Positions 25,935-31,833 of a stretch of 64,000 nucleotides of DNA are shown piece after piece. Location of the stretch: the sequence record OZ035760.1; one strand, written 5' to 3'. Within the stretch, counting starts at the first letter, position 1; each line of letters starts with the position of its first letter. The translations under genes were made by a program, and so were the position numbers. The notes under the pieces were generated by a model. The model saw only the letters and a program-made list of their open reading frames with translations, ran no database searches and was not told the DNA's origin. The DNA is from Tequatrovirus NIC06P2.

Positions 25935-25960
25935 GGGGACCTTTCGGTCCCCATGTTTTT
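25935..25960. terminator. Terminator between gene 54 and the convergent alt-region ORF
   Basis: GGGGACC-UUUC-GGUCCCC followed by T-run. Confidence 0.65.
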
Positions 25961-26249
25961 ATTTACGGAATGAAATAAAAGCAGCAACTGAAGCAACTAA
26001 ACTGTCTTCAATATAAACCTCAATTTTTACCGGAGCTTCTGACTCAAATTTACCTGTTACTACACCTTGGAAAATACTTTCAGTCTGTTCTGGCTTTGAA
26101 AAATTTTCAGAAGGAAAAATTCCGAACTTTTTATCTGTTCCAAAAATTTTGATAAATTCATCATAAACTGCTTCATTAAAAGCATTATCAGCAGGAATAA
26201 CGCCTTCAACTGCAAGTTCTTGACCCAAAAAGCGCAAAGAAGATTTCAT
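25959..26249 (-). CDS. Hypothetical early protein downstream of alt (alt.-1-like)
   Basis: 96-aa ORF with early promoter and RBS GAGGAA upstream. Confidence 0.55.
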   Translation of the reverse strand: MKSSLRFLGQELAVEGVIPADNAFNEAVYDEFIKIFGTDKKFGIFPSENFSKPEQTESIFQGVVTGKFESEAPVKIEVYIEDSLVASVAAFISFRK

Positions 26250-26256
26250 TTTGTGT

Positions 26257-26310
26257 TCCTCATGTTATGTTAGTAAGGCTACTATAACACAACACGAGGG
26301 ACTTGTAAAC
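26257..26310 (-). promoter_or_regulatory. Early promoter (GTTTAC, 17-bp spacer, TATAGT) plus leader; copy A of a 54-bp repeat
   Basis: Minus strand gtttacaagtccctcgtgttgtgttatagtag...catgagga upstream of ORF 25959-26249. Confidence 0.55.
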
Positions 26311-28373
26311 TACATTTTGAACTTTTTAGACATTCCGTTGATGTTAACCAAAGAAGCCAAGATTTGAGAAACTTCGTTTTCCTCTTCTTTTGATTCTTCT
26401 ACAAGGAATTGATTAAATCCAGTCATTGGACGAACTTCACCAGTTTCCATTAAATGGTCGCCATCATAGATTACCGATTCGGTGAGCTCTTCCGTGGTCA
26501 TAACTTCAGCTTGAATGAGTTTTGTATTATTAGATGTTGTTCCGTCATTATTAGAAGCATCAGTTATTTTATTAACTTTGACCATCAATCCACGCGGTAG
26601 AATAACTTCAGCTTCTGTTGCTATTCCGAGACTTCCTGGATATACAACATTAACTTTATGAGCTCCATCAATTGCCCATCCTATTTGAACTTTAACGTAT
26701 TCAGGATTTTCTTTATACGCTCTTATTTCGTTTGGATTAATAGTTATTCCTTCTTCATTTTTATCAACTGTTAATTCATTGCGAGCTTCTGGTTCTAAAA
26801 GACCAATACCAGCATGTGTAATTCCAAAACGTCCAAAAATGATAGGAGTTAAAGAAGTAGATACAAAATTTCTGAAGTAGAACACTTTATTTTTAACTAA
26901 CGCTTCATATATAGGAGCAGTCATACTTTGAGCACGATAAACTGTAATGCCTTCTGGTATACGGTCACCATTTTCAAAAGCTGAATCTAAGTTATTTATA
27001 GCAGATTCAATTTCTTTTTCACTCATTACATCATATCGTTCTGGATTGTAACGACCTAAAAGAAGATTATTGATGTCAGTATATCCTGAACCGCAATATT
27101 CTCTAATGCCACGCTTTTGTGATGGAGTATATTTAGAACCATCGCGGGCAATAGTAATATCAATCATTGGACCAGCACCAATTCCAGAAAAACTGTAAAT
27201 CATTCGTTTGAGGAATTTAGTTTTTGCTGCGTTCCAGGAATTTTTAGTTATTTCTTCCCAGACTTCATCTGGTTGTCCTTTACGATTTTTATTATGATTA
27301 GCAAGCCATTTATCTTTATAATCTTCAAAGAATTGATTTACAGCTGCTGCGTATTTCTCTAAACATTTTATTGAAGTAGTTGGTTCATTTTTAATTGCAT
27401 TAAAAATTACTTCTTTAATTTTTTCTGAAACTTCACCGACCCGACTCAGCGGAAAGAATTTATAATCATAGTGAAGTTCATCTGCCGTTCCTTCAGCAAT
27501 AATTTTTGCTGCCTTTGTTTTAGAAGCTAATGAATTAATTCCAATTTTCATTTCTTCTGCTTCGGGAATTAAAGGTGCAGTAGCTGGTTTATTAAAATTA
27601 GCTGCTGTAGATTCATACTTCTGGAATAATTCACTTTCAAATCTAGAAGATTCCAATGACTGACTTTGTGCAATTGCTCTACGGGAAATTTTAACTTTAA
27701 CGATTACGGCTTGGTCAGAACGTTTATCATTTTCTTGTGCAATTGATGCTGCAATTGCTTCATTTTTAGTTACCTGATTTCCGGTATCTTTGTTGATATA
27801 AACATCACCAACCTTCGATTCAACCTTAGTAAAGAGTTCAGTACTAATTTCTGGAACTCCTGGAATGTCTTCTAGTGATACGTTTTTACGATGTATAAGA
27901 ATATATGCATACTTTTTATCGTAATCCCAGAGTTCCTTAAGAAGGACGTATCTGCCACCTGAACGACTACGGATAAGTCTATCAGCAATAACTTGAATTT
28001 GTCGAGCTTGACCAGCGGTTTTAGACTTAAGAATACGTAGCATACAAGCATCAATTTTATATTGACGCATTGTTTGCATTGCAACAGTAAAAACTGAATT
28101 GATATAATTAATTGGACTTGGACCAAGACCTTTTAATTTAGCAATTGAACCTTTAGCAGTTAATGTAAAAGGAACAATGTGCATCATTTTATCGCCCATT
28201 TTTAAATCGCGATTAGTATCACCTCCAGATGTATAGGTACATAAACGAAAGCCTGGTTGTTCAATTGCATCATCAACGTGAACTGAAAAAATTTGCGGTA
28301 TTTTCTTCTTTGGATTTAAGTTTGTAATCGGAAGAGTAGTATCTTCGTCAAATAATTCTGTAATGAGTTCCAT
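26310..28373 (-). CDS. alt: Alt, packaged mono-ADP-ribosyltransferase
   Basis: ORF 26310-28376; T4 Alt begins MELITELFDEDTTLPITNL, so start placed at the second ATG; late promoter upstream. Confidence 0.92.
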   Translation of the reverse strand: MELITELFDEDTTLPITNLNPKKKIPQIFSVHVDDAIEQPGFRLCTYTSGGDTNRDLKMGDKMMHIVPFTLTAKGSIAKLKGLGPSPINYINSVFTVAMQTMRQYKIDACMLRILKSKTAGQARQIQVIADRLIRSRSGGRYVLLKELWDYDKKYAYILIHRKNVSLEDIPGVPEISTELFTKVESKVGDVYINKDTGNQVTKNEAIAASIAQENDKRSDQAVIVKVKISRRAIAQSQSLESSRFESELFQKYESTAANFNKPATAPLIPEAEEMKIGINSLASKTKAAKIIAEGTADELHYDYKFFPLSRVGEVSEKIKEVIFNAIKNEPTTSIKCLEKYAAAVNQFFEDYKDKWLANHNKNRKGQPDEVWEEITKNSWNAAKTKFLKRMIYSFSGIGAGPMIDITIARDGSKYTPSQKRGIREYCGSGYTDINNLLLGRYNPERYDVMSEKEIESAINNLDSAFENGDRIPEGITVYRAQSMTAPIYEALVKNKVFYFRNFVSTSLTPIIFGRFGITHAGIGLLEPEARNELTVDKNEEGITINPNEIRAYKENPEYVKVQIGWAIDGAHKVNVVYPGSLGIATEAEVILPRGLMVKVNKITDASNNDGTTSNNTKLIQAEVMTTEELTESVIYDGDHLMETGEVRPMTGFNQFLVEESKEEENEVSQILASLVNINGMSKKFKM

Positions 28374-28396
28374 CATATCCTCTCTAGTGTTTATTC

Positions 28397-28404
28397 TATT
28401 TATA
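28397..28404 (-). promoter_or_regulatory. Late promoter TATAAATA upstream of alt
   Basis: Exact consensus on minus strand about 23 nt before the alt ATG. Confidence 0.55.
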
Positions 28405-30074: not shown

Positions 30075-30340
30075 TGTTCATCCTTTAGAGTTTGGTTTAC
30101 AGCTCTATTATAAATCAATTCATCATTAAGCTCAGTCAAAGACCTGTGGTACGTGGTTCTAACTTTATTTCCTTGCATCCAGTGCTTGACGTAAATGAAA
30201 CCTTGCTCTACACATTTTTTAAAAATTCGTTCGTCTTTTTGAGCTCGGAATTCTGGATTGCATCTAAAAAATTGATTTACGTGACCGTAATCACGTGTAG
30301 TATTACCTTCATTTTCATAAATAGTGTGAACAACAAACAT
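30071..30340 (-). CDS. 30.1: Hypothetical protein (30.1-like)
   Basis: 89-aa ORF coupled to the gene 30 start. Confidence 0.6.
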   Translation of the reverse strand: MFVVHTIYENEGNTTRDYGHVNQFFRCNPEFRAQKDERIFKKCVEQGFIYVKHWMQGNKVRTTYHRSLTELNDELIYNRAVNQTLKDEQ

Positions 30341-31179
30341 TAGAATGCTCCTTGGAAAATATTATCACCACTAGTAGGTCTATTATACAAATACTCTATG
30401 CCACCAGGTTTAATATAGTTCCATGTCTGAAACGGATGTGTCTGATATGGATGATATAGATGATTATAAGGATTAAATCCAGGAGTTCTCCAGGTAGTGT
30501 TCCAAGGAAAAGAATCGTTTTTGATCATCTTCTCGATTGCATCTTTTATAGCTTTTTCACTATCAAAGCTTTCTTTATTTTCCTTTGGTGAAAAAAGCTT
30601 ATTCTCTACATCGTTCCATGTATAAACTCGCTGAGCAGTTTTTGGAATATTGTCACGCTCTCCTCGAGCCATCCAATAAACAGGAACATTTAATATTTCA
30701 CTCGCGTGATCGCAGTGGTGAGCGAGATCGTCAATATAACAAATTACGTTATATTTCTCTTTTGCCTTTTTGAACAACTCTTCTTTTGAAGAATCATGAC
30801 CACACATCATTACTTCTGAGAAGGCACCAGGAAAAAGAGCATTCAAATTAAATTGACGATTCAACAGAGCGTCAATAGAATCACCCAATGCTGTAACAGC
30901 TACAAAATTATAATCTTCTTTTAATTTGTTAATTACACACAGAGCATCTTTATATGGAGACAAGTAACGAATAAAATCTGATCGATTGTATTTTTCAATT
31001 AACTTAACGCCAAGTTCTTCATCACAATTAAAAAGTTTACCAGGAGAAATAAATTTTTCATCTTGAATCATTTTTAAAATATGTTCTAACGGAAGATTAT
31101 ATTTCTGAGCAAAATAAGGAAGGCCTGATTGCCAGCTTAAACATACTCCATCAATATCAGTTAAAATAGTAGGCTTCAT
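30340..31179 (-). CDS. 30.2: HAD-superfamily hydrolase-like protein (30.2-like)
   Basis: 279 aa, N-terminal motif DIDGV typical of HAD phosphatases. Confidence 0.7.
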   Translation of the reverse strand: MKPTILTDIDGVCLSWQSGLPYFAQKYNLPLEHILKMIQDEKFISPGKLFNCDEELGVKLIEKYNRSDFIRYLSPYKDALCVINKLKEDYNFVAVTALGDSIDALLNRQFNLNALFPGAFSEVMMCGHDSSKEELFKKAKEKYNVICYIDDLAHHCDHASEILNVPVYWMARGERDNIPKTAQRVYTWNDVENKLFSPKENKESFDSEKAIKDAIEKMIKNDSFPWNTTWRTPGFNPYNHLYHPYQTHPFQTWNYIKPGGIEYLYNRPTSGDNIFQGAF

Positions 31180-31640
31180 AGAGAGTCTCTTAATAGGTTT
31201 AACACATCAATAAATTCAGCTTCGGTTAGTATTGTATCATCTTTTGTTAGACCACTAGCCATGCTGTGCTTCAAAACTTTTCCTTTCGAGGCTTGTAATG
31301 CATCACGAAAGCCCTTGTTTTGGATCGCTGCTTCAAAATATGCATTTGTGTATAATTCTTTCCACGCCGGGGAGTATCTTGAAAACGGAACTCCAAGCCA
31401 GAAGAGGGTCCCACGGTCCTGAGCTTTAGCATAAGACCTTCCAGCTTGTTGGGCGGCAAGCCCGGATAACCCAAATATACGACGTTGTTGTTCAACATTT
31501 TTCACCTTGCATCCTTGGAGGAATCCTTCGAGACCTCCAAATTGGATGCCATCCATAACGAAAGGCCATTGGGCGAAATTACTTAATGCACATGATGGCC
31601 ACCTAAAATTGCTTCTAATCTCTAACTCAGACATTTTCAA
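31176..31640 (-). CDS. 30.3: NADAR (YbiA-like) domain protein (30.3-like)
   Basis: 154 aa; motif LSNFAQWPFVMDGIQF...EGFLQGCK aligns with the E. coli YbiA NADAR core. Confidence 0.7.
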   Translation of the reverse strand: MKMSELEIRSNFRWPSCALSNFAQWPFVMDGIQFGGLEGFLQGCKVKNVEQQRRIFGLSGLAAQQAGRSYAKAQDRGTLFWLGVPFSRYSPAWKELYTNAYFEAAIQNKGFRDALQASKGKVLKHSMASGLTKDDTILTEAEFIDVLNLLRDSL

Positions 31641-31833
31641 TGCTTATAATTTCAACATCAGCCCAATGACCATAGCAAGGAAGACGAAATTCAATTGGCC
31701 AGTTAGGGTCCTTTTCTAATATAATAGACTTAACTTGTGGTTCTTCATGTTCATCGGTATATGGACCTTTATATGTTACTTTATATGTGACCTTAATGTA
31801 CTGAATTCCAAAAATCTTATTAATTATATTCAT
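31627..31833 (-). CDS. Hypothetical small protein
   Basis: 68-aa ORF within the translationally coupled minus-strand operon. Confidence 0.5.
   Translation of the reverse strand: MNIINKIFGIQYIKVTYKVTYKGPYTDEHEEPQVKSIILEKDPNWPIEFRLPCYGHWADVEIISIENV

What the first reader, a model, noticed from the sequence alone, without database searches (positions are those of the whole stretch)
31176..31640. NADAR-like (YbiA-family) protein with an altered catalytic motif, in the same early block as the Alt ADP-ribosyltransferase
The 154-aa product aligns with the NADAR core of E. coli YbiA (phage LSNFAQWPFVMDGIQFGGLEGFLQGCK against YbiA FSNFAAWPIKVDGKTWPTSEHYFQAQK). NADAR enzymes remove ADP-ribose from guanine in DNA and can neutralise DarT-type toxins. 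Here the conserved Glu is kept but the adjacent His is Gly (EH to EG), so activity may be altered or lost. The genome also packages Alt (26310-28373), so the phage encodes both a writer-like and an eraser-like ADP-ribosylation protein within 5 kb.
Basis: partly seen in the sequence, partly recalled or inferred. Interest (0 to 1): 0.4.

Follow-up and report, generated by a model that had tools for sequence, protein, structure and literature searches.

The report
T4 AdfN, known anti-DarT NADAR enzyme
This gene is the near-identical copy of phage T4 gene 30.3 (adfN), an enzyme already shown by experiment to strip ADP-ribose off phage DNA and so defeat the bacterial DarTG1 defence; the "altered motif" is the normal signature of this phage family, so the finding is correct but already known.

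Summary
The ORF is real. It lies on the minus strand at 31176..31640; the likely start is the ATG at 31634, giving 152 aa. It is 150/152 identical to T4 gp30.3 and matches Pfam PF08010 (Phage_30_3) at E=3.5e-70. NADAR membership holds at profile level (hhalign 94%, E=1.3e-7). It also holds at fold level: the AF2 model has pLDDT 93, and the only meaningful Foldseek PDB hits are the three solved NADARs. T4 gp30.3 has already been characterised as AdfN. It is a guanine-ADP-ribose DNA glycohydrolase, necessary and sufficient for T-even resistance to DarTG1 (Nat Commun 2025; Toxins 2024; HIDEN-SEQ preprint).

The "EH to EG, activity may be lost" idea is not supported. Gly37 is invariant in 53 family members. 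The active, crystallised Phytophthora NADAR has Gln at that position. The published catalytic residues E36 and K43 are present. The real family-specific change is His123 replacing the last-strand Glu/Asp.

Nothing supports an Alt "writer/eraser" pairing. The substrates differ, alt has its own late-promoter motif, and distant homologue loci show no transferase nearby. Verdict: already known, low interest.

The parts
31176..31634 (-). adfN (T4 gene 30.3) coding sequence, 152 aa plus stop, from the ATG used in the T4 annotation.
   Evidence: ORF list. 150/152 identical to T4 NP_049816 with no gaps. PF08010 at 234.6 bits against a cut-off of 36. 9 nt differences from T4 across the 459-nt CDS, 7 synonymous and 2 conservative (R70K, I125M).
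31527..31529 (-). Codon GAA = Glu36, the distal-ribose-coordinating catalytic Glu. It corresponds to PnNADAR E43, E. coli C7 DarG1 E88 and YbiA E48.
   Evidence: Sequence. Invariant in 53 family members. Aligned to YbiA E48. The E36A mutant of T4 AdfN is impaired.
31524..31526 (-).
   Evidence: Invariant Gly in all 53 aligned gp30.3-family proteins. PnNADAR has Gln here.
31506..31508 (-). Codon AAG = Lys43, the phosphate/adenine-coordinating Lys. It corresponds to PnNADAR K50, EcC7 K95 and YbiA K55.
   Evidence: Sequence. Conserved in at least 90% of the family. The K43A mutant of T4 AdfN is impaired. Role of the equivalent Lys is described.
31266..31268 (-). Codon CAC = His123, the family-defining residue at the end of the last beta-strand. 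It replaces Glu (YbiA type) or Asp (DarG1 type).
   Evidence: Invariant in the family. The model has a strand at residues 120-122. The hhalign alignment ends at L121 = YbiA L123, so ungapped extension places H123 on YbiA E125 (this step is inference). Literature statements.
31179..31223 (-). C-terminal residues 138-152, the terminal alpha-helix. This is the part lost in the non-functional RB69 allele (frameshift at gene position 411).
   Evidence: Helix H138-151 in the AF2 model. Intact and identical to T4 here. RB69 truncation and DarTG1 sensitivity described.
31627..31634 (-). Overlap ATGTCTGA: the adfN start codon overlaps the end of upstream gene 30.4 (31627..31833). No obvious Shine-Dalgarno sequence is present, which suggests translational coupling.
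   Evidence: Read from the sequence. Identical in T4. Coupling itself is inference.
31176..31179 (-). Overlap ATGA: the adfN stop overlaps the start of downstream gene 30.2 (30340..31179), a HAD-like protein.
   Evidence: ORF coordinates. Same arrangement in T4.

Best explanation
The ORF is the orthologue of T4 gene 30.3, now called adfN (anti-DarT factor NADAR). It is a minimal, core-only NADAR-fold ADP-ribosylglycohydrolase. When a host DarT1 toxin ADP-ribosylates guanine N2 in replicating phage DNA, AdfN binds the ADP-ribosyl group and cleaves the N-glycosidic bond, so the DNA is restored and replication proceeds. In this model Lys43 sits on the phosphates and adenine, and Glu36 and His123 flank the distal ribose. 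The enzyme is specific for guanine adducts. It therefore counters DarTG1 but not the thymine-modifying DarTG2.

Shown by experiment for the 99%-identical T4 protein: in vitro G-ADPr hydrolysis; loss of plaquing of T4 and T2 deletion mutants on DarTG1 hosts; rescue of RB69; impairment of the E36A and K43A mutants.

Shown here: orthology, an intact full-length allele, the NADAR fold, and conservation of E36, K43 and H123.

Inferred: that this phage's allele (R70K, I125M) behaves like T4's, and the exact chemical role of His123.
For: - Orthology: 150/152 identity to T4 gp30.3 with identical termini. Synteny ligase-30.1-30.2-30.3-30.4 matches T4. PF08010 at E=3.5e-70.
- Selection: 7 of 9 nucleotide differences from T4 are synonymous in this frame, which indicates purifying selection.
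- Sequence homology to NADAR: family profile hits YbiA in PDB (E=0.005). hhalign to YbiA gives 94% probability, E=1.3e-7.
- Fold: AF2 model pLDDT 93.2, pTM 0.88. The top three Foldseek PDB hits are exactly the three solved NADARs (2b3w, 8bau, 8bat) and everything below them is noise.
- Residues: E36, G37 and H123 are invariant and K43 is at least 90% conserved in 53 homologues.
- Published function of T4 AdfN/gp30.3: PMC11825919, PMC11125620, PMC12945103, bioRxiv 10.1101/2025.11.20.689424.
Against: - No experiment exists on this particular phage or allele.
- The Pfam NADAR model PF08719 does not hit the protein at E<=1. Superfamily membership therefore rests on profile-profile and fold evidence.
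- T4 AdfN does not rescue DarT1 toxicity in uninfected cells and only partly rescues non-T-even phages. The mechanism in vivo therefore needs something more than the bare enzyme.
- The E36A and K43A mutants retained partial rescue.
Confidence: 0.93

Rival explanations
1. Degenerate NADAR: loss of the His next to the catalytic Glu (EH to EG) leaves an inactive or binding-only pseudoenzyme.
For: YbiA has His49 where this protein has Gly37. The Pfam NADAR HMM does not match.
Against: - Gly37 is invariant across the whole family, which marks it as a constrained signature rather than decay.
- The catalytically active, crystallised PnNADAR has Gln at this position, and the His is not among the published mechanistic residues.
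- T4 AdfN, with the identical motif, hydrolyses G-ADPr in vitro in three studies.
- The substitution pattern against T4 indicates purifying selection.
Confidence: 0.02
2. Eraser for the phage's own ADP-ribosyltransferases: AdfN reverses or limits modifications written by Alt (or ModA/ModB), and this explains the proximity of alt and 30.3.
For: alt lies about 2.8 kb away on the same strand. A bioinformatic survey noted that T4-like NADARs are encoded along with ARTs (PMC9503650). T4 AdfN works fully only during T-even infection.
Against: - NADARs characterised so far act on base-linked ADP-ribose: guanine, and for some families cytidine. Alt is annotated as an RNA polymerase (protein) ADP-ribosyltransferase.
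- The adfN deletion phenotype is specific to DarTG1 hosts, and the gene is non-essential on K-12.
- A late-promoter consensus TATAAATA sits 21 nt upstream of alt, which suggests separate regulation.
- Loci of distant gp30.3 homologues show no ART Pfam domain within 4-6 kb.
Confidence: 0.03
3. Small-molecule N-glycosidase: like E. coli YbiA (riboflavin-intermediate N-glycosidase), or as proposed for phage NADARs in 2022, the main substrate is a soluble ADP-ribose derivative or immune signal rather than DNA.
For: YbiA is the closest solved structure. Iyer et al. proposed soluble ADPr derivatives as the preferred substrates of phage NADARs. L002 carries NUDIX and Thg1 genes near a distant homologue.
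Against: - Direct in vitro DNA de-ADP-ribosylation, and the DarTG1-specific genetic requirement of the T4 orthologue.
- The YbiA-defining last-strand Glu is replaced by His.
- A secondary soluble substrate is not excluded.
Confidence: 0.02

Closest known systems
T4 gp30.3 = AdfN (anti-DarT factor NADAR), Pfam PF08010 Phage_30_3
   Same: 99% identical protein of the same length, with the same neighbours (30.2 downstream, 30.4 upstream, DNA ligase nearby) and the same overlapping start and stop signals. E36, K43, H123 and the C-terminal helix are all present.
   Different: Two conservative substitutions, R70K and I125M. Met at position 125 is common in other family members. No experimental data exist for this allele.
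DarG1, the DarT1-associated NADAR antitoxin (e.g. E. coli C7, Geobacter lovleyi; PDB 8bat)
   Same: Same fold (Foldseek hit). Same reaction, removal of ADP-ribose from guanine N2 in DNA. Same Glu and Lys seven residues apart. Reported as the closest NADAR clade to the AdfN-T4 cluster.
   Different: No N-terminal extension. His instead of the catalytic Asp in the last strand. Not encoded next to a DarT toxin. The T4 protein cannot replace DarG1 as an antitoxin in uninfected cells.
E. coli YbiA (PDB 2b3w), YbiA-type NADAR
   Same: Best structural match (TM 0.67, E=5.8e-5). YbiA also hydrolyses G-ADPr in vitro.
   Different: YbiA has Glu125 where gp30.3 has His123, and His49 where gp30.3 has Gly37. 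gp30.3 has an extra beta-hairpin (residues about 76-87) that is absent from YbiA in the hhalign alignment. YbiA is a housekeeping riboflavin-pathway enzyme in a LexA-controlled operon.
AdfN-Bas32 and AdfN-Bas60, NADARs of T5-like and Vequintavirinae phages
   Same: Phage-encoded stand-alone NADARs that counter DarTG1 and are specific for guanine adducts.
   Different: They belong to different NADAR clades and were acquired independently. They neutralise DarT1 without phage infection, whereas the T4-type protein needs the T-even context.

Membership tests
gp30.3 / AdfN phage NADAR family (PF08010) | Match to the PF08010 profile above the gathering score | tested here: met
   234.6 bits against a cut-off of 36, E=3.5e-70, covering profile positions 1-138 of 138.
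gp30.3 / AdfN phage NADAR family (PF08010) | Histidine in the last beta-strand in place of the Glu (YbiA type) or Asp (DarG1 type) | tested here: met
   H123 is invariant in 53 members. It follows strand 120-122 in the model and falls on YbiA E125 by ungapped extension of the hhalign alignment. Definition taken from the literature.
gp30.3 / AdfN phage NADAR family (PF08010) | Full-length protein with the C-terminal helix, which is missing in the inactive RB69 allele | tested here: met
   152 aa with a C-terminus identical to T4. Helix at 138-151 in the model.
gp30.3 / AdfN phage NADAR family (PF08010) | Counter-defence against DarTG1 during infection | not testable with these tools
   Published for T4 and T2 deletion mutants and by transposon sequencing. 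Not tested for this phage.
NADAR superfamily | YbiA-type alpha+beta fold (helical core flanked by small beta-sheets) | tested here: met
   AF2 model pLDDT 93.2. The Foldseek PDB top three are YbiA 2b3w (E=5.8e-5, TM 0.67), PnNADAR 8bau and G. lovleyi NADAR 8bat, with no other hit below E=1.
NADAR superfamily | Conserved Glu and a Lys seven residues later (PnNADAR E43/K50; EcC7 E88/K95) | tested here: met
   E36 is invariant and K43 is at least 90% conserved. They align to YbiA E48 and K55.
NADAR superfamily | Match to the Pfam NADAR profile PF08719 | tested here: not met
   Not listed at E<=1. A family member, P0082, carries precomputed hits to both PF08719 and PF08010. Profile-profile comparison with YbiA is significant. 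The miss therefore reflects how Pfam splits the families rather than non-homology.
NADAR superfamily | Hydrolysis of guanine-linked ADP-ribose | not testable with these tools
   Published for the T4 protein in vitro.
   The position is His123 and is invariant. The literature treats phage NADARs as a separate family.
DarG1 (DarT1-associated NADAR antitoxin) | N-terminal fold extension, catalytic Asp in the last strand, and a gene adjacent to darT1 | tested here: not met
   The protein is only 152 aa and the NADAR core alignment starts at residue 16. It has His, not Asp. Its neighbours are 30.2 and 30.4, with no DarT.

The most novel reading that the evidence does not exclude
What remains unknown about AdfN-T4 is why it works fully only during T-even infection; the authors postulate an unidentified phage 'potentiating factor'. 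The evidence here does not exclude that this factor is encoded in the same translationally coupled gene string. The most obvious candidate is gp30.2. Its start overlaps the adfN stop (ATGA). This work shows it to be a HAD-type, 5'(3')-deoxyribonucleotidase-like phosphatase with intact DxD and DD motifs. Against this reading, distant gp30.3 homologues lack an adjacent 30.2 homologue. No direct evidence links the two proteins.
Probability: 0.05. Interest if true: 0.45.

Novelty: already known. Interest (0 to 1): 0.08.

Why it matters
It matters little as a discovery. The gene, its fold, its catalytic residues, its enzymatic activity and its role against DarTG1 were published between 2022 and 2026 for a protein that differs at 2 of 152 residues. 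The practical value is for annotation: most database records still call this ORF a 'hypothetical protein', and it can be named adfN. An intact allele predicts that this phage resists DarTG1, unlike RB69. Two points correct the first-stage reading. The Glu-Gly motif is normal for the family. The feature that really distinguishes the family is His123.

Tried and rejected
- Single-sequence phmmer against PDB gave only E=1.1 to YbiA. This is not enough alone, so a family profile, hhalign and fold search were added.
- Pfam NADAR (PF08719) gave no hit at E<=1. NCBIfam gave no hit for gp30.3 or gp30.2.
- I tested whether the gp30.2 linkage or an ADP-ribosyltransferase neighbour is conserved around distant gp30.3 homologues (P0044, P0082, P0045; loci L002-L007). 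The gene downstream of the homologue in L002 has no similarity to gp30.2. No ART Pfam domain lies within 4-6 kb. These results therefore do not support an operon-level writer/eraser or 30.2/30.3 module outside T4-like phages.
- I considered and rejected an RB69-type frameshift in this allele. The reading frame is intact to the same stop as in T4.
- I considered the internal out-of-frame ORF 30.3' as an alternative product of the region. The few substitutions against T4 give no sign of constraint on it.

Full report
**Observation.** The window carries an ORF at 31176..31640 on the minus strand, 154 aa if read from a TTG. Two codons downstream is an ATG (31634). This is the start used in the T4 annotation, and it gives a 152-aa protein. 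The ATG overlaps the end of the upstream gene (ATGTCTGA), and the stop overlaps the start of the downstream gene (ATGA). The Glu-Gly pair, where YbiA has Glu-His, is real: GAA GGA at 31529-31524 on the minus strand. It is 688 aa and 66% identical to T4 Alt.

**Identity.** The protein matches Pfam PF08010 (Phage_30_3) over the full profile at E=3.5e-70 and PHROG 652. The surrounding 2.5 kb is 97-98% identical to many Tequatrovirus genomes. Compared with T4 (locus L001), the protein is 150/152 identical to gp30.3 with no gaps. At the DNA level there are 9 differences across the 459-nt coding sequence. Seven are synonymous and two are conservative (R70K, I125M), which is the pattern of a gene under purifying selection. 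Gene order matches T4: ligase, 30.1, 30.2, 30.3, 30.4.

**Is it a NADAR?** The single-sequence match to YbiA is marginal (E=1.1), and Pfam's NADAR model PF08719 does not hit. I therefore tested the claim independently in three ways.
- A profile of 53 diverse family members (35-86% identical to the query) finds YbiA in the PDB at E=0.005, and nothing else credible.
- hhalign of that profile against YbiA gives 94% probability, E=1.3e-7, over residues 16-121 against YbiA 27-123.
- An AlphaFold2 model built from the alignment is confident (pLDDT 93.2, pTM 0.88). Foldseek against the PDB returns exactly the three solved NADARs as its top three hits: YbiA 2b3w (E=5.8e-5, TM 0.67), Phytophthora NADAR 8bau and Geobacter lovleyi NADAR 8bat. 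Every other hit has E>1.

**What is already known.**
- T4 gene 30.3 has been renamed adfN, for anti-DarT factor NADAR (Johannesman et al., Nat Commun 2025, PMC11825919).
- Deleting it from T4 or T2 abolishes plaquing on DarTG1 hosts, and expressing it rescues RB69.
- The purified protein removes ADP-ribose from DarT1-modified DNA, and the E36A and K43A mutants are impaired.
- RB69 is DarTG1-sensitive because a frameshift at gene position 411 removes the last 15 residues.
- An independent group showed that T4 gp30.3 hydrolyses guanosine-ADP-ribose in vitro (Toxins 2024, PMC11125620; Toxins 2026, PMC12945103).
- A transposon-sequencing preprint found adfN insertions lost specifically on DarTG1 hosts.
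- With the ATG start, the window protein has E36 and K43 at exactly the published positions, and it keeps the full C-terminal helix.

**The 'altered catalytic motif'.**
- In the 53-sequence alignment E36, G37, F38 and Q40 are invariant. 'EGFLQ' is the family signature, not a lesion in this phage.
- The crystallographic and mutational analysis of NADARs names a Glu, a Lys seven residues later, and a last-strand acidic residue as the mechanistic set. These are PnNADAR E43, K50 and E125, and E. coli C7 E88, K95 and D171. The residue following the Glu is not in that set.
- The active PnNADAR has Gln at that position (SSEQYF).
- The real peculiarity of the gp30.3 family is elsewhere. The last-strand Glu/Asp is replaced by an invariant His123, codon CAC at 31268-31266. 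By ungapped extension of the hhalign alignment, H123 falls on YbiA E125 (this last step is inference).
- For the same reason the protein is not 'YbiA-family' in the strict sense, and it is not a DarG1. It lacks the N-terminal extension, the Asp and a darT neighbour.

**The Alt connection.** alt is about 2.8 kb away on the same strand, and a 2022 survey had already remarked that T4-like NADARs sit with ARTs. Nothing supports a functional writer/eraser pair.
- T4 Alt is annotated as an RNA polymerase ADP-ribosyltransferase, packaged in the capsid. Characterised NADARs act on base-linked ADP-ribose.
- The adfN phenotype is DarTG1-specific.
- A T4 late-promoter consensus TATAAATA lies at 28397-28404 on the minus strand, 21 nt upstream of alt. 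alt is therefore not simply part of the same early unit.
- In three distant gp30.3-homologue loci, no ART domain was recorded within 4-6 kb.

**Mechanism.**
- Shown for T4 and inferred here: after infection of a DarTG1 host, DarT1 ADP-ribosylates guanine in phage DNA and blocks replication. AdfN hydrolyses the ribosyl-guanine bond and restores the DNA.
- Inferred from homologous structures: Lys43 holds the diphosphate and adenine, and Glu36 and His123 flank the distal ribose.
- Unresolved in the literature: T4 AdfN does not protect uninfected cells from DarT1 and only partly rescues non-T-even phages. An additional T-even factor is therefore suspected.
- I looked at the translationally coupled neighbour gp30.2. 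It is a HAD-type protein with invariant D8xD10, K132 and D150-D151. Its profile has a weak hit to 5'(3')-deoxyribonucleotidase 2jao, E=0.008.
- gp30.2 is not found next to the distant gp30.3 homologue examined, so any link between the two is speculative.

**Verdict.** The feature is already known (T4 AdfN), so the interest is low. The confidence that this is a functional AdfN is about 0.93. The residual doubt is only that this particular allele is untested.

Noticed in passing
window 30340-31179 (minus strand): gp30.2 has no Pfam or NCBIfam hit, and its start overlaps the adfN stop (ATGA). It looks like a HAD-superfamily phosphatase. D8xD10, K132 and D150-D151 are invariant in 29 homologues, and the family profile weakly hits 5'(3')-deoxyribonucleotidase (PDB 2jao, E=0.008). 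The conserved core is about 200 aa with a variable C-terminal tail.
   Followed up: partly
window 31271-31498 (minus strand): The out-of-frame internal ORF annotated in T4 as 30.3' is open here too (75 aa). All three nucleotide differences from T4 inside it change its amino acids (E>K, F>S, F>S), while two of the three are silent in the adfN frame. This small sample gives no sign that 30.3' is under selection as a protein.
   Followed up: partly
window 26310-28376 (minus strand) and 25959-26249: Alt is a mosaic relative to T4. Residues 1-250 are nearly identical, while the remainder, including the C-terminal half, is only about 50% identical with several indels. The T4 genes alt.-1 and alt.-2 (a partial duplication of alt) have no counterpart: only the alt.-3-like ORF lies between gene 54 and alt.
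   Followed up: partly
window 28397-28404 (minus strand): An exact T4 late-promoter consensus TATAAATA lies 21 nt upstream of the alt start. The window holds 20 such motifs against 8.5 expected by chance.
   Followed up: no
database homologues P0007, P0014, P0015, P0017, P0051, P0094: Several natural T4-like phages carry truncated gp30.3 fragments (86-109 aa), or fragments fused to pieces of other Pfam families (PF06919, PF11097, PF06019, PF26911). This suggests frequent deletions in this region and repeated natural loss of adfN, as in RB69.
   Followed up: no
L002 9115-11294; L006 1-186: Distant gp30.3 homologues sit in varied phage contexts. A 308-kb contig has NUDIX and Thg1-like genes about 3-5 kb away. 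A 70-kb contig has a DNA ligase about 4 kb upstream, which echoes the ligase-30.3 proximity seen in T4.
   Followed up: no
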